From IMG/VR virus record IMGVR_UViG_3300012039_000001: DNA of 64,000 nucleotides; one strand, written 5' to 3'. Position numbers and translations under genes: made by a program. The notes beneath the pieces are model-generated. The model searched no databases and was not told where the DNA came from. It saw nothing but the letters and a program-made list of their open reading frames with translations. Positions 480 to 27,814 of this stretch are shown in pieces. Source of the stretch: a virus. Positions within the stretch are counted from its first letter, which is position 1; every line of letters starts with the position of its first letter.

Positions 480-492
480 TAGGACACTAGGT

Positions 493-565
493 GGGCTTGT
501 AGCTTAATGGTTAAAGCAAGGAACTCATAATTCCGAGATTCTGTGTTCGAGTCACAGCAGGCCCA
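493..565 (+). tRNA. tRNA with CAT anticodon (elongator Met or Ile2-lysidine type)
   Basis: Hand-folded cloverleaf: acceptor GGGCTTG/CAGGCCC, D stem GCTT/AAGC, anticodon loop CTCATAA, T arm CTGTG-TTCGAGT-CACAG, discriminator A. Pair 1-72 is G-C, so it is not a bacterial initiator. Confidence 0.85.
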
Positions 566-596
566 CCCTCTGCCCTATTCCCAATCAGGAGACAAT

Positions 597-3995: not shown

Positions 3996-4069
3996 GCCCT
4001 CGTAGCTCAATGGATTAGAGCGATCGGTTTCTACCCGATAGGTTGGGGGTTCGAGTCCCTCCGGGGGTA
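3996..4069 (+). tRNA. tRNA-Arg (TCT)
   Basis: Acceptor GCCCTCG/CGGGGGT (two G-U pairs), D arm GCTC-AATGGATTA-GAGC, anticodon stem ATCGG/CCGAT with loop TTTCTAC, T arm GGGGG-TTCGAGT-CCCTC. Confidence 0.9.
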
Positions 4070-7379: not shown

Positions 7380-7399
7380 TCTTTCGGGTTTGATTAGGT

Positions 7400-7473
7400 A
7401 TAGACGTAGTTTAAAGTTGGAAGAATACTTCATTGTCCTTGAAGCGATGCACGTTCGAATCGTGCCGTCTATA
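7400..7473 (+). tRNA. tRNA-Asp (GTC), atypical C at position 37
   Basis: Acceptor ATAGACG/CGTCTAT, D stem GTTT/GAAT, anticodon stem CTTCA/TGAAG with loop TTGTCCT, T arm GCACG-TTCGAAT-CGTGC, discriminator A. Confidence 0.75.
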
Positions 7474-7475
7474 TG

Positions 7476-7548
7476 GCGGGTGTAGCTCAACTGGTAGAGC
7501 ACTAGTTTTCCAAACTAGAGGTAGCAGGTTCAAGCCCTGTCACCCGCA
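7476..7548 (+). tRNA. tRNA-Gly (TCC)
   Basis: Acceptor GCGGGTG/CACCCGC, D arm GCTC-AACTGGTA-GAGC, anticodon stem CTAGT/ACTAG with loop TTTCCAA, T arm GCAGG-TTCAAGC-CCTGT. Confidence 0.9.
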
Positions 7549-17114: not shown

Positions 17115-17366
17115 ATGAAAATAAGAACAGATAAAGTACACACTTTTGTCTGGCTCTCTAAAAGAGATACGTTTAGATGGGCACATAGGCCGCATAAATC
17201 GTGGCCATGTTCTACTATAAGCGACAAGAGGATTTTCGTAAAAATGAAAAAGAAGGGAGGGGATCTAGTAGATCTGAGAGTAAATGGTAAATATCCAAAA
17301 AGCTTGGATATGGAAGAGTTGAGGTATTGTTTGAAGGATTTGTTGAAAGGAAAAGGAAATGATTGA
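17115..17366 (+). CDS. hypothetical protein
   Basis: 83-aa ORF. Its stop overlaps the start of the Ubl gene. Confidence 0.5.
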   Translation: MKIRTDKVHTFVWLSKRDTFRWAHRPHKSWPCSTISDKRIFVKMKKKGGDLVDLRVNGKYPKSLDMEELRYCLKDLLKGKGND

Positions 17367-17610
17367 CGTAACATTGGTCAGTAATAGTGGTGATGGTCGT
17401 ACTCGTAGTTTGTCTGCAAGAGACGGAGTTCTTCTAGAGGATTTTCTAGAGGTAAACTTCGATGGTGACGTTAGTGACTTTTCTATCTCGGTTCGTCGAG
17501 ATGGAGACAATATGCGAGTTGGAACTGACTTTGAATTGTCAGAGTCACTTGAGGACGGCGATCGCGTATCCCTCGCACCGAAGAAGGTAGAGGGGGCTGT
17601 AACTCTTTAA
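17359..17610 (+). CDS. ubiquitin-like beta-grasp protein (ThiS/MoaD-like Ubl), non-GG C-terminus
   Basis: 83 aa. 'MIDVTLV' first strand, 'LEDFLE' helix region and 'LEDGDRVSLAPKKVEGAVTL' (compare ThiS/MoaD 'L.DGD.V.i.P.v.GG'). Hand count gives ~46% G+C versus ~28% at the start of the next gene. Confidence 0.6.
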   Translation: MIDVTLVSNSGDGRTRSLSARDGVLLEDFLEVNFDGDVSDFSISVRRDGDNMRVGTDFELSESLEDGDRVSLAPKKVEGAVTL

Positions 17611-17631: not shown

Positions 17632-17669
17632 GGGGTGGATCTCGAAAGGGGTCCACCCCTATTTTTTTT
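17632..17669 (+). terminator. rho-independent terminator after the Ubl gene
   Basis: 12-bp stem GGGGTGGATCTC / GGGGTCCACCCC (two G-U pairs) closed by a GAAA tetraloop and followed by TATTTTTTTT. Confidence 0.8.
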
Positions 17670-17693: not shown

Positions 17694-18896
17694 ATGAGTA
17701 AAAGACAGGAAAATAAAGAAAGATTAATCCAAAAAATAACCGACAAAATTGTACACGATCTTGAATCAAAGCGTTATTACTTACAAAAGACTAACGGAGT
17801 AGAGACACTATATAGGCATTTTGATCTTTATTTTTATAGAGATCAAATAAGAAAAATAGAAAAAGCAGAGTTAAGAAAGTTTCCGTTAAAACTTGCTGCA
17901 AAGAAAATATTTAATGTTATAAAATCTAGACTAGAAGATATTTCAGCTTCAACGTCTAATATACTTAAAGGAATGACAGAAGAAATAAAGGTAGACAAAA
18001 AACAAATTTCAGAAGAAATAAAATGTCTATTTGAATTATTTGATAAAGTAAGATATAACAATGGAATCTTAACCGCTGTAACTAGATCGGATATCATTCT
18101 AGAAGAAGGTGGGGATTATGAAACAAACTTTGGGAAATTCACGATTGTATTTAACTTTGAATCTCCAGACGTAGGTGCCGAAGCCTTGACTCCAAAACCA
18201 TGCCCTGGCGACTCATCAATAACTCACCCACATGTGAAAAATGACTGTATATGCACAGGAGATGGATATGACATTATACATACAGCAAAAGACGAGAACA
18301 GATTCTCAGATATATTCATAATATGTGAACGCATATTACAAACGTACTCCCCGGACAGTCCACATGCTCAAATAGAAAGTTGGCATGAGGAACAATGTAG
18401 ATGTAGTGAGTGTGGAGATTATATAGGTTCTGAAGATGTATATGATTGTTATAATTGTGGGGATTTATTATGCCATAGTTGCTGCATATCATGTTCTGTT
18501 TGCGACCGCTTGTCGTGCGGTAATTGTTATGAGTTTTGTGAGACGTGTGAAAATTCTTATTGCAATAATCACACTTGCAAAGAAGAGTGCAAGAACTGTA
18601 ATAAGGAAATATGTAGAGAAACTCAGGAAAAATGCAACACATGCGATAAAGAATGTTGTGAAGAGTGCCTTCGTATTTGCGATTTATGTCAATCGGTAAA
18701 TTGCACTGATTGTTGTTCTTCTTGTGGGTCATGCGACCAATTAACGTGCGAAAATTGCATAGATGATTGCGTAGAATGCGAGAAGAAATTATGTTCTGAT
18801 TGTGGTAAAGATTGCGATTATTGTGGCGAAAAAGTTTGCGAAAATTGCGAAACCATTTGTTGTCTTTTTAAGGAAAAAGAAAATGCCGGAACCTAG
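17694..18896 (+). CDS. E2 (UBC)-like protein fused to a C-terminal tandem CxxC zinc-knuckle-like array
   Basis: aa 177-192 'THPHVKNDCICTGDGY' resembles the UBC 'HPN...G.ICL' active site (candidate Cys187). aa 235-390 contain ~43 Cys in a 15-aa periodic C-x2-C-x4-C-x2-C pattern. The N-terminal ~230 aa are paralogous to 19816..20532. Confidence 0.65.
   Translation: MSKRQENKERLIQKITDKIVHDLESKRYYLQKTNGVETLYRHFDLYFYRDQIRKIEKAELRKFPLKLAAKKIFNVIKSRLEDISASTSNILKGMTEEIKVDKKQISEEIKCLFELFDKVRYNNGILTAVTRSDIILEEGGDYETNFGKFTIVFNFESPDVGAEALTPKPCPGDSSITHPHVKNDCICTGDGYDIIHTAKDENRFSDIFIICERILQTYSPDSPHAQIESWHEEQCRCSECGDYIGSEDVYDCYNCGDLLCHSCCISCSVCDRLSCGNCYEFCETCENSYCNNHTCKEECKNCNKEICRETQEKCNTCDKECCEECLRICDLCQSVNCTDCCSSCGSCDQLTCENCIDDCVECEKKLCSDCGKDCDYCGEKVCENCETICCLFKEKENAGT
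18447..18863 (+). repeat. degenerate 45-nt (15-codon) tandem coding repeat, ~9 units
   Basis: TGY codons recur in phase: Cys at aa 252/255/260/263, 267/270/275/278, 282/285/290, 299/302/307, 314/317/322/325, 329/332/337/340, 344/347/352/355, 359/362/367/370 and 374/377/382/385. Confidence 0.75.
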
Positions 18897-19812
18897 ATTA
18901 AGATTTACACCATATTCCTGGGCAAAAATTTTATATATGCGAGACGCCGGAGATACAGAAATAGGTGGGTTCGCAATTTTAGATAAAGAAGATCCATTGC
19001 TTGTTATAGATTTTCACTTAATAAAACAAAAATGCTGTTCTGTAACCGTTGAACTAGATGAAGAAGATACTATTAAGTTTGCTGAAGAAATGTCAGACTT
19101 AGGTTATGAACCTTTTCAATATCAAAATTGCTGGATACATACGCATCCTGGCAATTGTGCAAAGCCGAGCATGAATGATGAAGAAAATTTTGAAAAGAAT
19201 TTTAGCCACCCTCACTGGGCTATATTTGTTATAGTGGCAAAAGGTGGAGACAAATACTGTAGAGTTAAATATAATGTAGGGCCAAAGATAGATGTAGACA
19301 TAGATTGTGTAATTGACTATTCCACAGAATTTGATGCGGCAAATTTTGAAGAGTGGCAAAAGGAATACGAAGATAAGGTAACAAAGGAAGAGATAGTAAG
19401 AATATTATCAGATGGAAGTGCTTTTAACAAGTTCCATCCTTGCAGTAACTTAGTTAACGATAACGAAAAAGATTTCAATTACGAGTATGATGAAATAGGA
19501 AGATCTCCAAATAAAGATATTGGAAGACCATTAGACAATGATTATTGGAAATCAATGTATTCTGGATATAAAGACAGAAAAGAAGAAGCTATAGAAATGC
19601 ATTTGCAAGATGGTGCAATATGGTTCTGGATAGACGATGAAGATGATATTTATAAATATGATATATTAACTGAGACGTTCTATAACGATGCGGGAGAAGA
19701 GATTGACGAAGACGATGATCTTGAGAAAAACGTAATAAGACAAGTAAAAAGAAAAGCTAAAGCAGAATTAAAAAATGGCTTGGTAGAAGTTGGCCAAAAG
19801 ACAATGGAGTAA
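18883..19812 (+). CDS. JAB/MPN (JAMM) metallopeptidase with acidic C-terminal extension
   Basis: Exact JAMM motif: E26 (DTEIGGF) ... H86-T-H88-PGNCAKP-S96-MN-D99. ATG 18883 overlaps the upstream gene by 14 nt. 309 aa. Confidence 0.8.
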   Translation: MPEPRLRFTPYSWAKILYMRDAGDTEIGGFAILDKEDPLLVIDFHLIKQKCCSVTVELDEEDTIKFAEEMSDLGYEPFQYQNCWIHTHPGNCAKPSMNDEENFEKNFSHPHWAIFVIVAKGGDKYCRVKYNVGPKIDVDIDCVIDYSTEFDAANFEEWQKEYEDKVTKEEIVRILSDGSAFNKFHPCSNLVNDNEKDFNYEYDEIGRSPNKDIGRPLDNDYWKSMYSGYKDRKEEAIEMHLQDGAIWFWIDDEDDIYKYDILTETFYNDAGEEIDEDDDLEKNVIRQVKRKAKAELKNGLVEVGQKTME

Positions 19813-19815
19813 ACT

Positions 19816-20532
19816 ATGACAAAAGATAAAAATATCGAAGATATAGCAAAAAAAATATTTAAATTAATTAAAAAATACTGCTTTTCAAGAGGAGAATTGA
19901 CAAAGATCCTTGATAAAGCTTCGTATGCTGTGTCTAAAAATTTTACAACAACTTTAGATAAAATTAAAAGCAAAAAAAGTAACGCAGTCAAAGAGTTGAA
20001 TAAAGATATAAATGATGCAAAAAGTTTATTCTTACTATTCTCAAATGAAATGTCTGAATATCTTCGAGATGTAGAAGATATAAGAACTAACTTTAATTTA
20101 GACCATTTTCTAGCAGAGATAAAATATTTATTTTCAATTTTTGATAAAGTTGAAATCAAAGGCACAGAAATAATGGCCTCTACAAAGGAAGATGTAATTC
20201 TTCAATGCGGTGAACAAGATATAAATATAAATCTTGGAAAATTTAGAATATGTTTTGATATAGAAATTTATTATGAGACAAAAGAGTTAAATAAAGCTAT
20301 ATTAGCAAAAGCAATAACTCCAAGATTAGATTATAGTAGAAATTATACACATCCACATGTAAATTGTAACGGAGCAATATGTCTGGGAGATGGATATTCA
20401 TTGATACAGTCAGCTATAAAAGAATATAGAATATCTGACATTTTTCAAATAGTACAATCTATTTTAAAAACATATGGCGAAGATCCAATGGTGTATTTAG
20501 ATGATTTTAGAAAAGGAGATGATGATGAATAA
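19816..20532 (+). CDS. E2 (UBC)-like protein, second paralog (no Cys array)
   Basis: 'THPHVNCNGAICLGDGY...ISDIFQIVQSILKTY' aligns with 17694..18896. Candidate catalytic Cys189. GGAG RBS at 19806-19809. Confidence 0.6.
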   Translation: MTKDKNIEDIAKKIFKLIKKYCFSRGELTKILDKASYAVSKNFTTTLDKIKSKKSNAVKELNKDINDAKSLFLLFSNEMSEYLRDVEDIRTNFNLDHFLAEIKYLFSIFDKVEIKGTEIMASTKEDVILQCGEQDININLGKFRICFDIEIYYETKELNKAILAKAITPRLDYSRNYTHPHVNCNGAICLGDGYSLIQSAIKEYRISDIFQIVQSILKTYGEDPMVYLDDFRKGDDDE

Positions 20533-21184
20533 TAGATATGCAAGACAAAAAGATTTAGTCCCAGGCGATAAAATTAAAGACATACAAATTACAGTAATAG
20601 GAACAGGAGCAATAGGTAGACAGTGTTCAATACAATTAGCAACAATGGGCGCAGTAAATTTAAATATAATAGATTTTGACACCGTAGAAGAAGCAAATTT
20701 AGGAGCACAAGGATTTTATGAACAGGATCTTAAAAAGCAAAAAGTAGAAGCAGTCAAAGAGGTTTGTCAACAAATAAATTCGTCGTGCGTTATAAATGCA
20801 ATAAATGCAAAATTCAATAAATTTATGGACCTTGGAATAAATAATGTAGTCTTTTGTTGCGTAGATTCTATTGATACGCGCAAACAAATATTTGAAGCAA
20901 TAGGCAATCAGGTAAGATTATTTATAGATGGTAGAATGTCTGCCGAATTTGGCAGAGTATTCTGTGTTTTTGATGAAAAATCTAACGATTTCTATAAGAC
21001 GCAACTCTTCCCACAAAGAGAGGCATTTAATGGAAGTTGCACGGCAAAGACAACGATTTACGCAAGTAATATAATTTCGGGGTGGATGGTCTCTCAATTT
21101 GCGAAGTGGTTAAGAGGAATTGAGCTAGATAGCGGAGTAGATATCAATATACTTACAAATGAAATAAAGGCTTATAACAAATGA
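20525..21184 (+). CDS. minimal ThiF/MoeB/E1-like adenylation enzyme
   Basis: 'RYARQ', Rossmann loop 'VIGTGAIGRQ' and 'IDFDTVEEANLGAQ' (D.D.V...NL.RQ pattern). The start is one of three tandem ATGs (20519, 20522, 20525) after AAGGAG, overlapping the upstream stop. Confidence 0.8.
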   Translation: MNNRYARQKDLVPGDKIKDIQITVIGTGAIGRQCSIQLATMGAVNLNIIDFDTVEEANLGAQGFYEQDLKKQKVEAVKEVCQQINSSCVINAINAKFNKFMDLGINNVVFCCVDSIDTRKQIFEAIGNQVRLFIDGRMSAEFGRVFCVFDEKSNDFYKTQLFPQREAFNGSCTAKTTIYASNIISGWMVSQFAKWLRGIELDSGVDINILTNEIKAYNK

Positions 21185-22265: not shown

Positions 22266-22706
22266 ATGTCATATATAAGGTGTACTTCAAACCCAGAAGG
22301 TCTATATGTAATACAAGAAGCTAGAGATATTGTTTTTTGGTGGCGTCCCTCTGGGTCAAAAGAGGCAGAAATTTGCACTTACGAAGCTAGATATAATGGC
22401 AAAGCTTTTAAGTCATTTATGAAGAAAATGAAAAAGAGCGATGGCTTTATTTACCATAAAGGGATAAAATATAAAGATATATCTATCAGAGAAGTAACGG
22501 CTCTATATAAAAAGAGAGATAGATATCAAAATAAAATAGTGAATATTCTTGAAGAAGATGAGTTCCCTGATGATTATAATGAAATTTATGATAAATATAC
22601 TACAAAACATCTTGTCTGTCTTCAAATAAAAGATAAACAAATTCTAATGTATGATGTTACCTGGAAATACTTTTATAATAGCTATATAGAACAAAATGAT
22701 TTATAG
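22266..22706 (+). CDS. hypothetical protein
   Basis: 146-aa ORF starting directly after the previous stop. Confidence 0.55.
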   Translation: MSYIRCTSNPEGLYVIQEARDIVFWWRPSGSKEAEICTYEARYNGKAFKSFMKKMKKSDGFIYHKGIKYKDISIREVTALYKKRDRYQNKIVNILEEDEFPDDYNEIYDKYTTKHLVCLQIKDKQILMYDVTWKYFYNSYIEQNDL

Positions 22707-23589
22707 ATTAGAAGAAATAATACCATTAATAGGTAGTGCGAATTCTAAAAGAAAGAAAATAGTTGCCTTCAAAAACGAAAATGGAGAAGCTGTCAATGTA
22801 TTAATGAATCATAAAATAAAATATGCTTCTTTCAAAAAAAGTATATCTTGTGCCTGTTGCGGTAAAAATGGAGAATATTTTCAATTAGAATATAATAAAG
22901 AAGAAAGTTCTCATTTCTTCAATCTTTATGCAGAAGATGGTACATTAATGACGGTAGACCATATAAAGCCAGTAAGTATGGGCGGGCCAAAGAAGTCTAT
23001 GTCAAATGTGCAGACGCTATGTAAAGATTGTAATGAACTAAAGGACGACAAGCTATTATCAATAGAAAAACTAAGACAAGCAAAAAAGGAGTATGATAAA
23101 CTTAAAATACAAAATCCTCATATAACAAAAACAATCTTTCATAAAAAATTCAACAATATATCTCTTAGCAAGGAGCCAAAATTGATTAAAAGACTTAATG
23201 GTACTTTGAGAATGTCTAGGGTTTCCTCTACTATAGAAGGTGATTACATCAATATAGTTGTTACAGATAAAAATAGTAAACTAATAATATTAGAGGTAAA
23301 AATACCTGAAAAGGAATGTATGAATTTTCTGTCAAGTATGATTACAGAAATTCAGATGGATTATTTTCAAAATACCGATATTGGAAAGAGAAGAGAAATA
23401 AAGATTATTGAAGTAGCTATTCCTTCAAGTCCAACCGAAGAAGAGCTAGAAGATATCTTATCTGGTATAGAAAAAACTGGGTGGAAAGCTAGTATTTATA
23501 ATTTAAAAAATGCTAAAGCGGTTAAATACGTTGAGCATCATGCCATAAAAAATATAGTGGTAGAAAGGTGGGTAGACAATGAAAGTTGA
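22696..23589 (+). CDS. HNH endonuclease
   Basis: 'CACCGKNG...MTVDHIKPVSMGGPKKSMSNVQTLCKDCNELKDD' is a canonical HNH (C..C...DH...N...C..CN) motif. Confidence 0.7.
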   Translation: MIYRLEEIIPLIGSANSKRKKIVAFKNENGEAVNVLMNHKIKYASFKKSISCACCGKNGEYFQLEYNKEESSHFFNLYAEDGTLMTVDHIKPVSMGGPKKSMSNVQTLCKDCNELKDDKLLSIEKLRQAKKEYDKLKIQNPHITKTIFHKKFNNISLSKEPKLIKRLNGTLRMSRVSSTIEGDYINIVVTDKNSKLIILEVKIPEKECMNFLSSMITEIQMDYFQNTDIGKRREIKIIEVAIPSSPTEEELEDILSGIEKTGWKASIYNLKNAKAVKYVEHHAIKNIVVERWVDNES

Positions 23590-23855: not shown

Positions 23856-24062
23856 ATGGAAAAGAATAAGACTGTAATTCATACATACCAGGAGCCATAC
23901 GTTGACGAAGATGGCAAGATTGTGGTTAAATTTGATAAAAGAATATCCAGAGCTATTATAAACCAGTTAATAAGAACGCCGGATTTTGTTAAAAGAAATA
24001 AGTCTTTATTCCGATTAGGGAAAGATCTAGAGAGATTGACAAACCAACTATATGGAAAATAA
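23856..24062 (+). CDS. hypothetical protein
   Basis: 68-aa ORF, tightly packed. Confidence 0.5.
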   Translation: MEKNKTVIHTYQEPYVDEDGKIVVKFDKRISRAIINQLIRTPDFVKRNKSLFRLGKDLERLTNQLYGK

Positions 24063-24063
24063 T

Positions 24064-25590
24064 ATGAATCAGTTTCAAACAGATTTAGAGAACTATTTGT
24101 TAAGCGGACACATATTATTGCATGTAAATACATATGAAAAAGAAAGAGGCATTGAACAGATAGCTGAAGTGTGCAAAAATAATAGCAAAAAAATATATGT
24201 TTGGAATATAGCTAATGGTTGGGGAAATTCAAATAGCGAAGGCTCCCCAGAAGAAGCTATTAAAGAAGTAGTATCAATGGAGAAAGATTCAGTTTTTATC
24301 TTGAATAATTTCCATTACTATTTAAATCAACAAACATACAACAAGTTCGATATAGTGATCTCTTTAATAGAATGTATAAAAGGTTCTTTATATAAAGATA
24401 GTAAAACAATCATATTTTTATCTGGAGAATTTCAAATACCAGAAGTTTTAAGAAATGATGTCACAACTATAAATTTCCCATTACCGGACGAAGAACATAT
24501 AAAAGAAAGTATAAATAATGTTTGTAAGGGAATTACTCGTGAAGGTGAGCCTTTTAATCCAAATATGGATTTATTACCAGAAATAATAAATGCTTGTAGA
24601 GGCATGTGTTCTCATCAAATATCTGATAGAACGGCTCTGGCTATAAGGAAAAATAAGGATTTTAATAAAGAGGCGGTTAAGACCCTGTATCGGGAAAAAT
24701 CAAACGTAATAAAACTATCTGGTCTATTAAATTATATAGAACCAAAAAGTGGAGGACTAGAAAACATAGGTGGGTATGAGCCATTAAAAAGGCATATATT
24801 GCTAGATAAGCCCTGTTTTAGCAAAGAGGCTATAGAGTTTGGTATAAGTCCGCCAAAAGGATTATTGCTGGCAGGAATACCTGGTTGTGGAAAAACAGTT
24901 TTTTGCGAAGCAATAGCATCTGAATTTGGCTTAGCTCTATTGGAATTAAGTGTAGAAAATTTAATGGGTGGTATAGTCGGTGAAAGCGAGAAGAACACTA
25001 GAGAAGCTATAAAATTAATAGAAGCAATATCTCCAGTTGTTGTAAAAATTGACGAAGTAGAAAAGGCGTTTGGTGGAAAGGGGGATTTAGATGGTGGTAC
25101 GAGTAAAAGACTACTTGGCATGTTTTTAAAATGGTTAAATGATAGAAAATCACAAGTCTATGTTGTAATGACAGCCAATGATGTATCATCTCTTCCTCCA
25201 GAATTCACCAGAAAGGGAAGAATAGACGAGGTGTACGGTATGGGTCTCCCGAATAATGAAGAAAGAAAACAAATATTTAATATACATATATTAAATAAGA
25301 AAAGAGATCCAATCAATTTTGACTTAGACAAACTTTCTTTGTCGTGCGAAGGGTATACTGGGGCAGATATACAAACATCAATAGAAATGGGGCTTAAAAT
25401 AGCTTTTAGGTCAAAGCAAGAACTAAATGATAATTTCATATTGACTGGTTTAGATAGTATCAAGCCTCTTTCTAAAACACAACCTGAAAAAATAGAAGAA
25501 CTCAAGAAATGGATAGAAACTAGGGCGAAATTTGCTAATTCCCAAGAGACTACCATAAAAACACCATCAAGGAGAAATGTAAAAGTATGA
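24064..25590 (+). CDS. AAA+ ATPase (Ycf46-like architecture)
   Basis: Walker A 'GIPGCGKT', Walker B 'VVKIDEVEKAF' and 'MTANDVSSLPPEFTRKGRIDE' (sensor/Arg finger region). ~250-aa N-terminal domain followed by a classic-clade AAA module. ATG 24052 is an alternative start. Confidence 0.85.
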   Translation: MNQFQTDLENYLLSGHILLHVNTYEKERGIEQIAEVCKNNSKKIYVWNIANGWGNSNSEGSPEEAIKEVVSMEKDSVFILNNFHYYLNQQTYNKFDIVISLIECIKGSLYKDSKTIIFLSGEFQIPEVLRNDVTTINFPLPDEEHIKESINNVCKGITREGEPFNPNMDLLPEIINACRGMCSHQISDRTALAIRKNKDFNKEAVKTLYREKSNVIKLSGLLNYIEPKSGGLENIGGYEPLKRHILLDKPCFSKEAIEFGISPPKGLLLAGIPGCGKTVFCEAIASEFGLALLELSVENLMGGIVGESEKNTREAIKLIEAISPVVVKIDEVEKAFGGKGDLDGGTSKRLLGMFLKWLNDRKSQVYVVMTANDVSSLPPEFTRKGRIDEVYGMGLPNNEERKQIFNIHILNKKRDPINFDLDKLSLSCEGYTGADIQTSIEMGLKIAFRSKQELNDNFILTGLDSIKPLSKTQPEKIEELKKWIETRAKFANSQETTIKTPSRRNVKV

Positions 25591-25853: not shown

Positions 25854-26783
25854 ATGGAAAAAACAAATCTATTCGATTTAGGTTATTTAATGTCTTTAAG
25901 AGTAGGCTCATGGTCTGGTCGCCGAATGGTTTCAAAAGAAGATATGGAAGCTATGGGGGTAAATGTAGAAAACATTCCAGAAAATTTAGTGAATTATGGT
26001 CGTAAGTTATTAGTACCAAAAGAGACGCTAGATGTTTTACGTCGCATTGAACAACGTTCGAGAAAGTTTTTAAATAACTGGTCGAAAGATTTCGGCATTA
26101 CAAACACCCATTTCGTACCGGTAAAAAACTTAGAGAATATAGAAAATGAATTAGTGAAGATGAGAAAAGAGTTTTATTATGAAGTAGATGGATTCATAAA
26201 TAAGTTCGAATCTCTTAAAGAAGAGATGGAAAAACAATATCCAGAATTTTGGAATAAATGCCTTAAGGATTTATATCCTTCTCCAGAATCTCTGAGAGAA
26301 AGATTTCATTTTAACTGGTCTCTGTTCAAAATAGGAAGTTTATCGTATACAGATACGGAAAAAGAAATTGAGCTAAGACAAAAACTTCAAGAAGAAGTAA
26401 CTGTATTCGTTGGAGAGTATGTAGAAGGAATGCGGTCAGAAGTTCTTAAGTTCTGCGAACTAATAACTTGTAGAATTAATGAAACACCATTCGGAGATGA
26501 AGAAGAACCAAAGAAATTAACAAAAAAGACCCTTGGCGCTTTTAAGAAATGTATAGAAAAATTTAGGGTAATGAATATCTTTGAGGACACACAGATAGAA
26601 AAGTCTTTATTAGAATTCAAGCAACAATTCTTGGATATTGACATAGACTCAAAAGCCTGTCAAACAGAAGGATTCCAGAATTCAGTCAAATCAGCAATCG
26701 GAAAGATAACTAAGCAAGCTGCTATTAGTGGACAGGAATATGAATCATATGTAAATGAAGTAAAAAGGAAAATTGTTATATGA
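25854..26783 (+). CDS. hypothetical protein (DUF3150-like pattern)
   Basis: 'LRVGSWSGRRMVSKEDM...NLVNYGRKLLVPKETL' resembles the DUF3150 N-terminus from memory. 309 aa. Family assignment is tentative. Confidence 0.5.
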   Translation: MEKTNLFDLGYLMSLRVGSWSGRRMVSKEDMEAMGVNVENIPENLVNYGRKLLVPKETLDVLRRIEQRSRKFLNNWSKDFGITNTHFVPVKNLENIENELVKMRKEFYYEVDGFINKFESLKEEMEKQYPEFWNKCLKDLYPSPESLRERFHFNWSLFKIGSLSYTDTEKEIELRQKLQEEVTVFVGEYVEGMRSEVLKFCELITCRINETPFGDEEEPKKLTKKTLGAFKKCIEKFRVMNIFEDTQIEKSLLEFKQQFLDIDIDSKACQTEGFQNSVKSAIGKITKQAAISGQEYESYVNEVKRKIVI

Positions 26784-27049: not shown

Positions 27050-27129
27050 AATACCAAATAAGTTTCAATGATGGAGCCAGTTAGAGGTTATTTTGGTGCG
27101 GCTTTATTCGATCCAAATTGGAGATAAGA

Positions 27130-27558
27130 ATGAGTATGTATTGTTTAATAAAAACAGAATTTAGATCACAAGAAGCTTTATTATGCGCCCTAGTAGAAAC
27201 AAAAAATAGAAATGGTAAATTTTGGTCTCCTGGCCAGATAAAAATCTGTGAAGAACCACAACCTTTGGTTGGATACGAAGGTTCTTTTCGTAAAGAAAAG
27301 GCGCATATTATAATCCCAAGAACATTTGTTGGTGGTTCGGCAAATGATTTAGGCTTCATTCGCAATGAAGCTGGGGTTTATGAAGCTATTATATCAGAAT
27401 ACGATAAAAGTTTTTATAATGAGAGTTGGCTTTGCCAACTCAAACAAAACTATAGCTATCACGCTATAAAACTTCAGCAAGAACAAAAAGGAAGAAAAGT
27501 TACTAGAGAACGTTTAGACAATGGTAAACAAAGAGTAACTGTTTCAAACATTAGGTAA
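27130..27558 (+). CDS. DUF1257 (Ycf35-like) protein
   Basis: 'MSMYCLIKTEFRSQEALLCAL...VGYEG...AHIII...DLGF...YEAIISEYD' follows the DUF1257 pattern. GGAG at 27120-27123 precedes ATG 27130. Confidence 0.65.
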   Translation: MSMYCLIKTEFRSQEALLCALVETKNRNGKFWSPGQIKICEEPQPLVGYEGSFRKEKAHIIIPRTFVGGSANDLGFIRNEAGVYEAIISEYDKSFYNESWLCQLKQNYSYHAIKLQQEQKGRKVTRERLDNGKQRVTVSNIR

Positions 27559-27565
27559 TATAACT

Positions 27566-27814
27566 ATGATACTTGAAATTCAAGAAGATGGTAATGTAAA
27601 GTGTCTATATACCGATGAGATTGATCTATATAAAATTGGAGCAATAACAAATATCGAAAGAGCAAGTCACATAGTATTTTACGAAGATGACCAGTGCTGG
27701 GTTGTTGTTGACGCTGATACTCACGAAAAAGTATATAATAACAAGGTGAGAGAAAAATGCGTCATATGGGAAGTTGAGAATTTCGGGTGCGGTGGAAAAT
27801 ATTATAGGGGATAA
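27566..27814 (+). CDS. hypothetical protein
   Basis: 82-aa ORF, tightly packed. Confidence 0.5.
   Translation: MILEIQEDGNVKCLYTDEIDLYKIGAITNIERASHIVFYEDDQCWVVVDADTHEKVYNNKVREKCVIWEVENFGCGGKYYRG

What the first reader, a model, noticed from the sequence alone, without database searches (positions are those of the whole stretch)
18396..18863. ~43-cysteine, 15-residue-periodic C-x2-C-x4-C-x2-C array fused to the E2-like domain
Seen in the sequence: aa 235-390 of the 17694..18896 product hold about 43 Cys. From aa 252 they fall into about 9 tandem units of 15 aa (45 nt). Examples are CSVCDRLSCGNCYEF, CNTCDKECCEECLRI, CDLCQSVNCTDCCSS, CGSCDQLTCENCIDD, CVECEKKLCSDCGKD and CDYCGEKVCENCETI. The Cys positions are conserved while the nucleotide sequence has diverged, so this is not a recent slippage artefact. 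The second E2 paralog lacks the array. Inference: each unit could bind one zinc (Cys4), or the units could interleave like RING or B-box cross-braces. The fusion could then act as an E2-E3-like hybrid, a substrate-recognition scaffold, or a redox or metal-sensing module. I do not recognise this repeat as a named domain.
Basis: partly seen in the sequence, partly recalled or inferred. Interest (0 to 1): 0.75.

Follow-up and report, generated by a model that had tools for sequence, protein, structure and literature searches.

The report
Zinc-knuckle rod fused to E2 enzyme
A phage ubiquitin-conjugating (E2-like) enzyme ends in a long chain of cysteine pairs that most likely holds about ten zinc ions, and this unnamed E2-plus-zinc-chain design defines a large family of ubiquitin-like tagging operons in Planctomycetota bacteria and a few large phages.

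Summary
The 400-aa product of 17694..18896 has 43 Cys in aa 235-390, with a 15-residue period far beyond chance and no DNA-level repeat. It is not peculiar to this phage. A full HMMER scan found 1462 cluster representatives (978 at E<=1e-10), and nearly all of the best 150 combine an HPH...C.GDG E2-like core with the same C-terminal array. The usual form has 10 CxxC knuckles; this phage clade has 17-19. The family sits in a conserved Ubl - E2(array) - JAB - E1 operon, mostly in Planctomycetota genomes. No Pfam or NCBIfam model covers it. The nearest named relatives match only below threshold: the Siva C-terminal Cys-rich region, ANCHR-like and TRIM B-boxes, and FYVE. AlphaFold2 with 120 homologues gives pLDDT 89-96 across the array. 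Three patterns point to one zinc per 15-aa unit: 11-residue gaps at both ends, joint loss of knuckles 8 and 10, and indels of about one 15-aa unit. Each CxxCG knuckle would pair with the helical CxxC of the next unit, forming a continuous cross-brace chain. The function is inferred, not shown: a rigid, acidic, E3-like adaptor built into the only E2 of an operon with no E3 gene. I rate it a new variant of a known kind.

The parts
17359..17610 (+). Ubiquitin-like (beta-grasp) modifier gene, 83 aa, ending ...KKVEGA+VTL
   Evidence: tblastn finds homologues directly upstream of the E2 gene in related loci. About 45 of them share the C-terminal motif TP.K[IV]EGA, which ends at GA or carries a 1-10 residue tail.
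17632..17659 (+). Terminator-like hairpin (12-bp stem, T8 tail) between the Ubl gene and the E2 gene
   Evidence: Consensus scan only. Seven terminator-like sites were found in the region against 1.8 expected, and this is the strongest.
17694..18896 (+). E2-like enzyme with C-terminal Cys array (E2cys), 400 aa
   Evidence: The identical protein was read on 10 contigs; the four places shown are from four samples. 1462 family representatives were found.
17694..18038 (+). N-terminal helical extension (aa 1-115)
   Evidence: The AF2 model has helices at 2-42, 45-60, 65-95 and 102-115.
18039..18389 (+). E2/UBC-like core (aa 116-232) with H178-P179-H180, catalytic C187-x-G-D-G, the SPDSP stretch (aa 219-223; family consensus YNPxSPYV) and invariant W230
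   Evidence: Invariant columns in the 120-sequence alignment. hhalign aligns HPH with HPN, C187 with Cys85, and the family YNPxSPYV motif (SPDSPHA in this protein) with NPDDPLV of UbcH5b. The AF2 model shows a beta-meander followed by helices.
18396..18863 (+). Cys array (aa 235-390): cap knuckle, nine 15-aa units, terminal CC
   Evidence: AF2 pLDDT is 89-96 across the array. The Cys columns are invariant in phage-clade homologues.
18402..18413 (+). Cap knuckle A0 (C237-S-E-C240), followed by an 11-residue gap
   Evidence: C237 and C240 are invariant in 120 sequences. The 11-residue first spacer is the family norm.
18447..18857 (+). Nine C-x2-C-x4-C-x2-C-x3 units (aa 252-388). Units at aa 282 (C290/H293, extra C295) and aa 299 (C307 only) are degenerate.
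18858..18863 (+). Terminal C389-C390 pair at the start of the last helix, proposed partner of knuckle C374/C377
   Evidence: The AF2 helix 386-398 begins here. C389 is invariant in the phage clade. The pairing itself is inferred.
18883..19812 (+). JAB/JAMM isopeptidase gene (309 aa from the ATG), overlapping the E2 stop by 14 nt
   Evidence: Prok-JAB E=2.5e-4. PADLOC JAB E=6.5e-6. The H-x-H-x7-S-x2-D motif is visible in the sequence. Metagenome gene calls give 309 aa.
19816..20532 (+). Second E2-like paralog without array (238 aa; THPHV...AICLGDG retained)
   Evidence: UQ_con E=0.028. UBE2D2/D3 are the top PDB hits, at E about 0.6-1. It is absent from the related phage-like contigs that reach the E1 gene.
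20501..21184 (+). Minimal E1-like adenylating enzyme (ThiF, 227 aa)
   Evidence: ThiF E=2.2e-27. Nearest solved structures are MoeB and MccB.

Best explanation
The segment encodes a real, folded, metal-binding module: a chain of zinc knuckles that is the defining C-terminal domain of a large, unnamed family of E2-like enzymes.

Anatomy (shown). After the E2 core (HPH...C187-x-GDG...SPDSP in this protein, YNPxSPYV in the family...W230) comes a cap knuckle, C237-x2-C240. An 11-residue gap follows. Then come nine 15-residue units of the form C-x2-C-[G/D/E]-x2-h-C-x-[D/S/E]-C-[L]-x2, and finally a terminal Cys pair.

Architecture (inferred from sequence grammar). Each unit contributes one zinc. 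The zinc is shared between neighbours: the knuckle-type CxxC of unit n (type A) pairs with the helical-turn CxxC of unit n+1 (type B). Every minimal treble-clef finger is therefore interleaved with the next. This is a RING/B-box-style cross-brace continued indefinitely, giving a stiff, strongly acidic rod. It would hold about 10 Zn in this protein, two of them at degenerate sites, and 5 Zn in the usual 10-knuckle form.

Function (inferred). The array-bearing protein is the only E2 in the conserved Ubl-E2-JAB-E1 operon, and that operon has no E3 gene. Cross-brace zinc fingers are the classical partners of E2 enzymes. The rod therefore most likely acts as a built-in E3-like or adaptor element that positions a substrate or partner relative to the E2~Ubl thioester. 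Its length can change in steps of roughly one unit.

The confidence given is for the whole statement. Taken separately, I put a zinc-binding structural array at about 0.85, the A(n)+B(n+1) chain topology at about 0.6, and the E3-like/adaptor role at about 0.4.
For: Periodicity and Cys count are far beyond chance, and there is no DNA repeat.

Family evidence:
- 1462 representatives were found, and nearly all of the best 150 show lag-15 Cys tails behind an HP[HN] motif.
- The invariant residues are H178, P179, H180, C187, G189, W230 and the Cys columns.
- 138 of 198 parsed members have exactly 10 knuckles with spacers 11-4-3-4-3-4-3-4-5/6.

Structure evidence:
- The AF2 model built with 120 homologues has mean pLDDT 91.4 and 89-96 across the array. 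It places a 2-3 residue strand before nearly every knuckle and 3-residue helical turns at several B-type knuckles.
- A1, the profile of the 120 full-length family members, matches binuclear cross-brace fingers in the PDB: RUFY1 FYVE at 8e-4, TFIIH p44 at 2e-3, MID1 B-box1 at 9e-3.
- Foldseek aligns the first ~53 aa to FYVE and Rim fingers with TM 0.59-0.62.
- Array sequences alone give sub-threshold Pfam hits to Siva, ANCHR-like B-box and zf-B_box.

Evidence for the chain topology:
- The first gap of 11 residues equals 4+4+3, which is a unit that lacks its B knuckle.
- Six natural 8-knuckle variants end with the mirror image, B-x11-B. They have lost knuckles 8 and 10 together while keeping knuckle 9.
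- Between phage-clade homologues there is one insertion of exactly 15 aa and one C-terminal indel of 13 alignment columns, about one unit.

Operon evidence: Ubl-E2cys-JAB-E1 is colinear in most of 125 loci, and E2cys is the only E2 there. The Ubl has a conserved ...EGA end with precursor tails.

Surface evidence: the array carries net charge -20 here and -8.5 +/- 2.3 in 72-aa family arrays. Its non-Cys positions are 17% identical against 54% for the E2 core, yet dN/dS is 0.22, so the surface is still constrained.

Literature: the Siva-1 Cys-rich C-terminus is reported to bind partners, and Siva-1 is reported to act as an E3 ligase and as a RAD18 adaptor (PMC6171514, PMC4068132).
Against: - No metal content has been measured.
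- I could not read model coordinates, so the A(n)+B(n+1) pairing rests on sequence grammar alone. AlphaFold confidence for small Cys-rich fingers can be misleading (abstract of 10.1101/2025.06.19.660640).
- The E2 assignment is weak by statistics. The window protein has no Pfam hit. Only 1 of 120 members reaches UQ_con, at 0.0018. hhalign probability against UbcH5b is 3%. No UBC structure appears among the top 50 Foldseek PDB hits.
- No hit to a named zinc-finger family passes its curated cut-off.
- hhalign of the arrays against human Siva covers only 24 columns at 24% probability.
- Nothing here identifies a substrate or shows E3-like activity.
- Two sites in this protein are degenerate (C290/H293 and C307 alone), so the zinc count is uncertain.
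Confidence: 0.55

Rival explanations
1. Redox or zinc-sensing switch. The Cys4 sites release zinc on oxidation or zinc starvation, the rod collapses, and E2 activity or localisation changes. Conjugation would then be coupled to stress or infection state.
For: A run of all-Cys sites is chemically oxidation-labile (general knowledge of Zn-thiolate switches such as Hsp33 and RsrA). All Cys are strictly conserved while the surface is only loosely conserved. Extra Cys lie next to several knuckles in this protein: C235, C264, C295, C321 and C341.
Against: A sensor does not need 5-17 sites in a fixed register, nor length changes of about one unit at a time. The non-Cys surface is under purifying selection (dN/dS 0.22). 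The nearest relatives (B-box, Siva, FYVE) are structural or interaction modules.
Confidence: 0.13
2. Self-assembly or docking rod. The array mediates oligomerisation, as TRIM B-boxes do, or docks the cognate E1, JAB or Ubl rather than a substrate.
For: There are sub-threshold B-box and ANCHR-like B-box similarities. The minimal 227-aa E1 shows only a ThiF domain, so E1-E2 recognition may be supplied from elsewhere. P0005 is a tandem duplication of E2 plus array.
Against: The window phage keeps an array-less E2 paralog next to the same E1, so the E2 core alone can presumably meet the E1. Array length varies from 6 to more than 26 knuckles, which is awkward for a fixed docking interface.
Confidence: 0.15
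3. Metal storage, or a metal other than zinc (metallothionein-like sequestration, or rubredoxin-like Fe(Cys)4 electron carrier).
For: Cys makes up 27% of the tail. One BFVD structural neighbour is annotated 'Prokaryotic metallothionein'. CxxC knuckle pairs can bind Fe, as in rubredoxin (general knowledge).
Against: The register is fixed, with conserved hydrophobic positions 8 and 13. The predicted fold is rigid beta-hairpins rather than metallothionein-type clusters. The array is obligatorily fused to an E2 within a Ubl operon. There is no ferredoxin-type CxxCxxCxxxC motif (seen directly in the sequence).
Confidence: 0.05
4. Disulfide-bonded extracellular Cys repeat, like the CxxC repeats of VSP or furin-like surface proteins.
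For: Only the high density of CxxC motifs.
Against: The neighbouring gene products (E1, JAB, Ubl) belong to families that act in the cytoplasm. There is an N-terminal helical bundle rather than a signal peptide. All similarities are to intracellular zinc fingers.
Confidence: 0.02

Closest known systems
Siva (CD27-binding protein, Pfam PF05458), C-terminal Cys-rich 'B-box-like ring finger plus zinc-finger-like' region
   Same: Human Siva contains CGQC-x4-CGQC-x3-CWGC-x4-CTLC, preceded by a cap CxxC and a 9-residue gap, which is the same C-x2-C-x4-C-x2-C-x3 grammar. 14 of the 23 sequences scanned hit PF05458 at E<=10; one of them is the recalled human Siva itself, so 13 are arrays. The hits fall on profile positions about 107-168. 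A giant-virus 'Cd27-binding protein' is a structural neighbour: 34% identity, TM 0.53, rmsd 2.5 over 65 columns. The endings are alike: C.MF in phage-clade arrays and CAMFET in the recalled Siva sequence. The Siva C-terminus binds partners, and Siva is reported as an E3 ligase or adaptor (PMC6171514, PMC4068132).
   Different: All hits are below the curated cut-off (best 18.7 bits against 26.2). hhalign gives 24% probability over 24 columns. Siva has about 2 units where this family has 4-17. The Siva N-terminal SAH and death-domain-like regions are absent here. Siva is not fused to an E2.
B-box zinc fingers (PF00643) and ANCHR-like B-box (PF22586); MID1 and TRIM21 B-box structures
   Same: Two knuckles separated by four residues, with a hydrophobic residue before the second (C-x2-C-x3-h-C-x2-C), form the core of the cross-braced two-zinc B-box. 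There are profile hits to 2ffw (MID1) and 6s53 (TRIM21). Pfam sub-threshold hits occur in 11 of 23 sequences (ANCHR-like) and 7 of 23 (zf-B_box).
   Different: B-boxes are closed 8-ligand modules that usually include His ligands, and they occur singly or in pairs. Here the pattern is all-Cys, open-ended and repeats every 15 aa. Scores are 12-18 bits against cut-offs of 24-27.
FYVE, Rim and Piccolo-type zinc fingers
   Same: The first ~53 aa (cap knuckle, 11-residue gap, next three knuckles) align to RUFY1 FYVE by profile (8e-4). Foldseek gives probability 0.99 and TM 0.62 for 2yw8, and TM 0.59 for Rim2 2a20.
   Different: The FYVE signature R(R/K)HHCR basic motif is absent (VYDCYNCG here). There is no long beta-hairpin before the last ligand pair. 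The similarity covers only the N-terminal cap of the array.
Tandem LIM-domain rods (LMO2, Lhx3) and the Pirh2 CHY zinc-finger domain
   Same: These are the best whole-array Foldseek PDB matches: 2xjz at 0.048, 2rgt at 0.054, 2dkt at 0.23. All are elongated multi-zinc rods.
   Different: E-values are not significant and rmsd is 11-12 A. LIM fingers bind zinc sequentially with 16-23 residue loops, a different spacing and topology.
Bacterial Ubl-conjugation operons: BilABCD, Bub, type II CBASS Cap2/Cap3, and the archaeal Ub-E1-E2-RING-JAB operon
   Same: The gene order Ubl-E2-JAB-E1 follows the bilA-D gene lettering (Ubl BilA, E2 BilB, DUB BilC, E1 BilD; PMC10557695). All combine a ThiF-type E1, a Cys-dependent E2, a Ubl with precursor tail, and a JAMM peptidase.
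   Different: The E1's PDB matches at E<=1e-5 are named MoeB, MccB, ThiF, PaaA, UBA6/UBA7 and an unnamed ThiF-type protein; none is named Bil. PADLOC gives no Bil-type hit for the E2. The HPH motif is kept, whereas the '6d' operon class of Iyer et al. lacks that His (PMC1779556). No known bacterial E2 carries a multi-zinc array. In the Caldiarchaeum-type operon the RING E3 is a separate small protein (PMC4197634, PMC5654768).
E2 enzymes carrying extra non-UBC domains (UBE2O, BIRC6/Apollon; from general knowledge)
   Same: One polypeptide combines a UBC-type catalytic core with a substrate-binding or zinc-finger part, so no separate E3 is needed.
   Different: These are eukaryotic, very large and have unrelated accessory domains. 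Nothing was tested here; this is an analogy only.

Membership tests
UBC/E2 superfamily | HPN-type motif followed about 7-8 residues later by the catalytic Cys | tested here: met
   T-H178-P-H180-V-x5-C187-x-G-D-G. H178, P179, H180, C187 and G189 are invariant in 120 sequences and align to HPN...Cys85 of UbcH5b.
UBC/E2 superfamily | Significant sequence match to UQ_con (PF00179) or to a solved E2 | tested here: not met
   The window protein has no Pfam hit at E<=1. Only 1 of 120 members hits UQ_con, at 0.0018. The family profile finds no E2 in the PDB at E<=1. hhalign probability is 3%. The paralog E2b gives UQ_con 0.028 and UBE2D hits at E about 0.6-1.
UBC/E2 superfamily | UBC fold: four-stranded antiparallel meander, active-site loop, then C-terminal helices | tested here: inconclusive
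   AF2 secondary structure fits: strands between 118 and 164, then helices 189-200 and 204-216. However, Foldseek lists no UBC chain in the top 50, only Knl1 RWD (4nfa) at E=1.8.
UBC/E2 superfamily | Genomic or functional association with an E1 and a Ubl | tested here: met
   Ubl-E2cys-JAB-E1 is colinear in the window and in most of 125 loci.
B-box zinc finger (PF00643, PF22586) | Score above the curated Pfam threshold | tested here: not met
   Best scores in the per-protein scan of ten arrays are 14.5 bits against 24.1 (zf-B_box) and 18.2 against 27 (ANCHR-like B-box). In the 23-sequence scan one member reached E=1.5e-5 for ANCHR-like B-box, but its bit score was not listed. The whole window array gives no hit.
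B-box zinc finger (PF00643, PF22586) | Closed 8-ligand module binding two zinc ions in a cross-brace | not testable with these tools
Sequence grammar suggests an open-ended cross-brace chain instead.
Siva (PF05458) | Score above the gathering threshold, and the N-terminal SAH and death-domain-homology regions | tested here: not met
   Best array score is 18.7 bits against 26.2, and only profile positions about 107-168 match. The N-terminal part here is an E2, not Siva-like.
FYVE domain (PF01363) | WxxD, R(R/K)HHCR and RVC signature motifs around eight Cys | tested here: not met
   The sequence has VYDCYNCG where RHHCRNCG is expected (alignment). Only 1 of 120 members hits FYVE, at 2.3e-4.
BilABCD anti-phage system | Ubl, E2, JAB DUB and E1 in one operon | tested here: met
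   The order follows the bilA-D gene lettering (PMC10557695).
BilABCD anti-phage system | Sequence relationship of the E1 and E2 to BilD and BilB | tested here: inconclusive
   No chain named Bil appears among PDB hits for the E1 (E<=1e-5), the E2cys profile or E2b. I did not confirm which Bil chains are in the PDB copy.
BilABCD anti-phage system | Protects the host against phage | not testable with these tools
   This copy is phage-encoded. The role of the Planctomycetota copies is unknown.
Metallothionein | Cys-x-Cys and Cys-Cys clusters, few aromatic residues, metal-thiolate clusters without regular secondary structure | tested here: not met
   Regular CxxC knuckles, conserved hydrophobic or aromatic position 8, and predicted beta-hairpins with high confidence.

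The most novel reading that the evidence does not exclude
The array is an open-ended, length-adjustable zinc 'daisy chain', a new architectural class of treble-clef finger. It would make this E2 a self-contained E2/E3 that selects its own targets. Together with the linked classic AAA ATPase (with DUF3150 and DUF1257), the Ubl-E2cys-JAB-E1 genes would form a mobile tag-and-unfold pathway resembling the ubiquitin-proteasome system. That pathway would be carried by phages and Planctomycetota mobile elements and used in phage-host conflict.
Probability: 0.2. Interest if true: 0.85.

Novelty: new variant of a known kind. Interest (0 to 1): 0.62.

Why it matters
Bacterial and phage ubiquitin-like conjugation systems (Bil, Bub, CBASS Cap2) are a recent and active field. 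How they choose targets without E3 ligases is an open question. This is a large family, with at least 978 clusters at 50% identity, whose only E2 always carries a multi-zinc cross-brace rod. No Pfam or NCBIfam model covers it, and every source name I saw was 'hypothetical protein'.

If the rod is the specificity or activation element, three things follow:
- It would be a minimal prokaryotic E2/E3 fusion.
- It would be a natural system for studying how RING/B-box-type fingers came to work with E2 enzymes.
- It would be a very simple, extendable zinc scaffold (one Zn per 15 aa) of interest to protein designers.

The phage copy, the extra array-less E2 and the linked AAA ATPase suggest a role in phage-host conflict that can be tested directly.

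Tried and rejected
- Single-sequence AlphaFold2 was useless: pLDDT 36, all-helical.
- blastn of the operon and tblastn of the protein against 50,697 GenBank phage records gave no match.
- The search for homologous proteins recovered only 4-6 family members with the full protein or with alignment A1. Array-only alignment A3, used for the last search, returned 45 proteins, all named 'hypothetical protein' where a name was given, and no Siva proteins.
- The search for related loci with A1 failed because no conserved 7-10 column stretch exists. It was replaced by a degenerate DNA pattern for THPHV-x5-C-x-GDG.
- The Burroughs, Iyer and Aravind papers of 2009 and 2011 on prokaryotic E1 and RING/treble-clef systems are not held. 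A prior description there cannot be excluded.
- One literature query was wasted because 'BilB' matched 'bilberry'. Searches for the motif string, for the neighbouring DUFs, and for Planctomycetota plus Ubl terms found no description of this family.
- The model of one zinc bound within each unit was rejected. A 4-residue linker is the spacing that separates different zinc sites in B-box, ZZ, FYVE and AN1 fingers (general knowledge). That model would also leave the invariant cap knuckles without partners.
- The model of closed 30-aa binuclear blocks was rejected. Indels are about one 15-aa unit. Knuckle totals of 17, 19, 21 and 23 plus a cap occur. Eight-knuckle variants lose knuckles 8 and 10 but keep 9.
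- Diversifying selection on the array surface was rejected. dN/dS is 0.22 against 0.08 for the core, and no pair exceeds 1.
- The other-frame and minus-strand ORFs inside the segment (18436..18699 + and 18316..18732 -) were rejected as genes, because only the E2 frame is conserved in homologues.
Full report
**The observation**

ORF 17694..18896 (+) encodes 400 aa with 48 Cys, of which 43 lie in aa 235-390. Cys-Cys coincidences peak at lag 15 (29) and lag 30 (22). In 20,000 shuffles of the tail the lag-15 mean was 10.4 (sd 2.4), and no lag from 5 to 30 exceeded 22. The tail is 27% Cys, against 2.4% in the window's + strand ORFs of at least 100 aa.

Seven units fit C-x2-C-x4-C-x2-C-x3 exactly, starting at aa 252, 267, 314, 329, 344, 359 and 374. 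Two units are degenerate. The unit at aa 282 is 17 aa long, with H293 in place of a Cys and an extra C295. The unit at aa 299 has lost its fourth Cys, which is T310 here and Cys in all four phage-clade homologues. Upstream there is a cap knuckle, C237/C240, followed by an 11-residue gap. The array ends with C389-C390.

Tandem Repeats Finder reports nothing. The 45-nt units are on average 48% identical, and TGT and TGC are used 22:21. The periodicity is therefore maintained at the protein level. The identical protein was read on 10 contigs, and the four places shown come from four different JGI samples.

**The setting**

The window is part of a large phage genome. All long ORFs are on one strand. 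There are 4 tRNAs. It carries nicotinamide phosphoribosyltransferase, ribonucleotide reductase and an RNA ligase family annotated as a tail fiber attachment catalyst, and G+C is about 32%. The protein is on record on a contig of up to 168,682 bp.

Around the gene lies an operon:
- a Ubl gene (17359..17610);
- the E2-like gene with the array;
- a JAB/JAMM peptidase (18883..19812), which overlaps the E2 stop codon;
- a second E2-like paralog without array (19816..20532);
- a minimal ThiF-type E1 (20501..21184).

**It is a family, not a one-off**

A full HMMER scan of 1.84 billion cluster representatives gave 1462 hits at E<=1e-3 and 978 at E<=1e-10. Nearly all of the best 150 have an HP[HN] motif at about aa 170-200 and a Cys-rich tail whose best autocorrelation lag is 15.

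In a 120-sequence alignment the invariant residues are H178, P179, H180, C187, G189, W230 and the array Cys. The family consensus is THPHVxxxxLCEGDG ... YNPxSPYVxLxxWxGxxCxxCG-x11-(CxxC-x4-CxxC-x3)n.

Of 198 parsed members, 138 have exactly 10 knuckles with spacers 11-4-3-4-3-4-3-4-5/6. Longer forms reach at least 26 knuckles by this parser; the richest member, P0022, has 72 tail Cys. The window protein and its closest relatives (P0002, P0003, L004/L127, L005/L126, L128) have 17-19.

Nearly all of those listed are Planctomycetota MAGs (Planctomycetaceae, Pirellulales, Phycisphaerae, Sedimentisphaerales), and at least one MAG carries three copies. The same pattern hit only 2 IMG/VR contigs, and a protein-based scan found 3.

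tblastn shows Ubl-E2cys-JAB-E1 colinear in most loci. Every E2b hit I inspected overlaps the E2cys gene, so those operons have a single E2, and it carries the array. The Ubl ends in a conserved ...TP.K[IV]EGA, either exactly or with a 1-10 residue tail. That is the mark of a processed, conjugated modifier.

**Is the N-terminal part an E2?**

By statistics the case is weak:
- No Pfam hit for the window protein.
- UQ_con in 1 of 120 members.
- No E2 in a profile search of the PDB.
- hhalign probability of 3% against UbcH5b.
- No UBC chain in the Foldseek top 50.

By anatomy it fits. hhalign puts three features in register with UbcH5b: HPH on HPN, C187 on Cys85, and the family YNPxSPYV motif (SPDSPHA in this protein) on NPDDPLV. 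AF2 predicts a beta-meander followed by helices. The paralog's best PDB hits are UBE2D2 and UBE2D3, though at E about 0.6-1. The gene always sits between a Ubl and a JAB plus E1. I treat 'E2-like' as probable, not proven.

**What the array resembles**

No Pfam or NCBIfam model covers the family. All source names seen are 'hypothetical protein'.

Profile search of the PDB finds only borderline hits, and all are binuclear cross-brace fingers: RUFY1 FYVE at 8e-4, TFIIH p44 at 2e-3, ZFYVE19, MID1 B-box1 at 9e-3, and TRIM21 B-box.

AF2 with the 120-sequence alignment gives mean pLDDT 91.4 and 89-96 across the array. It places a 2-3 residue strand before nearly every knuckle and 3-residue helical turns at several second knuckles.

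Foldseek against the PDB has no hit at E<=1e-3. The best whole-array matches are tandem LIM rods and the Pirh2 CHY domain. The first ~53 aa superpose on FYVE and Rim fingers with TM about 0.6.

Against predicted viral structures there are 24 hits at E<=1e-3. Most are uncharacterised giant-virus and uncultured Caudovirales proteins. They include a 'Cd27-binding protein' at 34% identity and TM 0.53.

Scanning arrays alone against Pfam gives consistent sub-threshold hits. Siva is hit by 14 of the 23 sequences scanned, one of which is the recalled human Siva itself. In the per-protein scan of ten arrays the Siva E-values run from 0.0015 to 4, the scores from 7 to 19 bits against a 26.2 cut-off, and the hits map to the Cys-rich profile positions about 107-168. 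ANCHR-like B-box is hit by 11 of 23, and zf-B_box by 7 of 23.

Human Siva contains CGQC-x4-CGQC-x3-CWGC-x4-CTLC, the same grammar over about two units. hhalign of the array profile against Siva gives only 24% probability over 24 columns.

So the array belongs to the B-box/Siva kind of finger by motif and probably by fold, but it is not a member of any named family by the curated criteria. A second architecture also exists: a 651-aa protein (P0004) lying between an SNF2 helicase and an Mrr nuclease carries the same 15-aa array with C-x2-H variants and no E2.

**How the zinc sites are probably built (inference)**

A logo of 812 exact units shows two knuckle types. Type A is C-x2-C-[G/D/E]. Type B is h-C-x-[D/S/E]-C-[L]. 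AF2 gives helical turns at several type B knuckles. A knuckle plus the start of a helix is the treble-clef recipe.

A 4-residue linker is what separates ligand pairs of different zinc ions in B-box, ZZ, FYVE and AN1 fingers (general knowledge). A and B of the same unit should therefore not share a zinc. Three observations select the scheme A(n)+B(n+1):
- (i) The invariant cap knuckle is followed by 11 residues. That equals 4+4+3, exactly a unit whose B knuckle is missing. This is expected if a B always pairs with the A of the preceding unit.
- (ii) Six natural 8-knuckle variants (P0013, L036, L083, L102, L119, P0111) end B-x11-B with nothing after. They have lost knuckles 8 and 10 together and kept 9.
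- (iii) Between phage-clade homologues there is one insertion of exactly 15 aa and one C-terminal indel of 13 alignment columns, about one unit.

Closed 30-aa blocks or within-unit sites do not explain these three facts. The prediction for this protein is 10 sites, listed under next steps. Two are degenerate: CCCH at unit 3, and a three-Cys site at unit 4, with C295 or C321 as a possible fourth ligand. I could not read model coordinates, so this topology is untested.

**Surface properties**

The array is strongly acidic: net charge -20 here, and -8.5 +/- 2.3 over 72 aa in 155 family members. Non-Cys positions are 17% identical pairwise against 54% for the E2 core. However, dN/dS is 0.22 (core 0.08) and never exceeds 1. 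The surface is loosely constrained, not under detectable diversifying selection.

**Function**

Shown:
- The array is obligatory in the only E2 of a conserved Ubl operon that has no E3 gene.
- It follows the invariant W230 directly, with pLDDT 85-89 at the junction.

Inferred: it is a rigid E3-like or adaptor arm that positions a substrate or partner relative to the E2~Ubl thioester. This is analogous to RING and B-box partners of E2 enzymes and to the partner-binding, E3-associated Cys-rich C-terminus of Siva (PMC6171514, PMC4068132).

Rival explanations are a redox or zinc switch, an oligomerisation or E1-docking rod, metal storage or Fe binding, and a disulfide repeat. They are listed with their evidence in the rival-explanations section of this report.

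**Comparison and novelty**

The operon has the gene order implied by the bilA-D lettering of BilABCD (PMC10557695). Its E1's PDB matches carry names such as MoeB, MccB and ThiF, and none is named Bil. Its E2 keeps the HPH motif, unlike the '6d' class of Iyer et al. (PMC1779556). Caldiarchaeum-type operons have a separate RING protein (PMC4197634, PMC5654768).

Verdict: a real and non-trivial feature. It is a new variant of a known kind, namely cross-brace treble-clef zinc fingers concatenated into an open-ended chain and fused to an E2. It defines a large unannotated family.

Noticed in passing
window 17632..17659 (+): A strong terminator-like hairpin (12-bp stem with 8 G-C pairs, then T8) lies between the Ubl gene and the E2 gene. 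It may act as an attenuator that gives more Ubl transcript than enzyme transcript.
   Followed up: no
window 17359..17610; about 45 loci, e.g. L006, L011, L038: The Ubl C-terminus is conserved as ...TP.K[IV]EGA. It ends in Gly-Ala, not Gly-Gly, and either stops there or carries a 1-10 residue tail (VTL in the window). This implies processing, presumably by the JAB peptidase.
   Followed up: partly
window 24052..25590, 25854..26783, 27118..27558, 27566..27814; loci L087, L076, L043, L029, L014, L089, L060, L050, L047, L128: A classic AAA ATPase (PF00004, 2.8e-26), DUF3150, DUF1257 and an 82-aa ORF lie 3-6 kb downstream of the operon in the window. Homologues of one or more of them lie just upstream of the Ubl-E2cys-JAB-E1 operon in Planctomycetota loci, and an AAA homologue (47% identity) lies 2.6 kb downstream of the E1 in a 167.6-kb phage contig. 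This may be a larger conserved system that joins Ubl tagging to an unfoldase.
   Followed up: partly
window 19816..20532: The array-less second E2 paralog is found only in this phage. Among the related phage-like contigs, L001, L005/L126, L127 and L128 extend through to the E1 gene and have only the array-bearing E2; the shorter L002 and L004 show none either but end within or just after the JAB gene. The paralog keeps THPHV...AICLGDG, so it is probably active.
   Followed up: partly
Planctomycetota loci, e.g. L006, L010, L011, L013, L014: After the 10-knuckle array these proteins carry an acidic low-complexity tail. Many also end in a short conserved motif (...G[LM]GE[TA][LV]V.P...) that is absent from the phage forms.
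   Followed up: no
L003 8001..9956 (protein P0004, 651 aa): The same 15-aa Cys array, here with many C-x2-C-x4-C-x2-H units, occurs without any E2 in a protein encoded between an SNF2/ResIII helicase and an Mrr_cat nuclease. The surrounding genes suggest a Firmicute-like genome, and the context looks like a defence island.
   Followed up: partly
protein P0005 (733 aa): This is a tandem duplication of the whole E2 plus array: two 10-knuckle arrays 291 aa apart.
   Followed up: no
Planctomycetota loci, e.g. L010 3649..4575 and L045 4536..5531: Other recurrent upstream neighbours include a DUF2958 protein (20 loci) and an unannotated ORF family of median length about 130 aa immediately upstream (32 loci). 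DUF2958 suggests the bacterial copies may sit on integrated mobile elements, and at least one MAG holds three copies.
   Followed up: partly
window 22696..23589: An HNH endonuclease gene (PF01844, 7.6e-9) lies between the Ubl operon and the AAA ATPase gene. It may be a homing-type insertion separating two parts of one neighbourhood.
   Followed up: no
window 492..568, 3996..4069, 7399..7474, 7476..7548: Four tRNA genes (Met, Arg-TCT, Asp, Gly-TCC) lie in the early part of the window, as is typical of large lytic phages.
   Followed up: no
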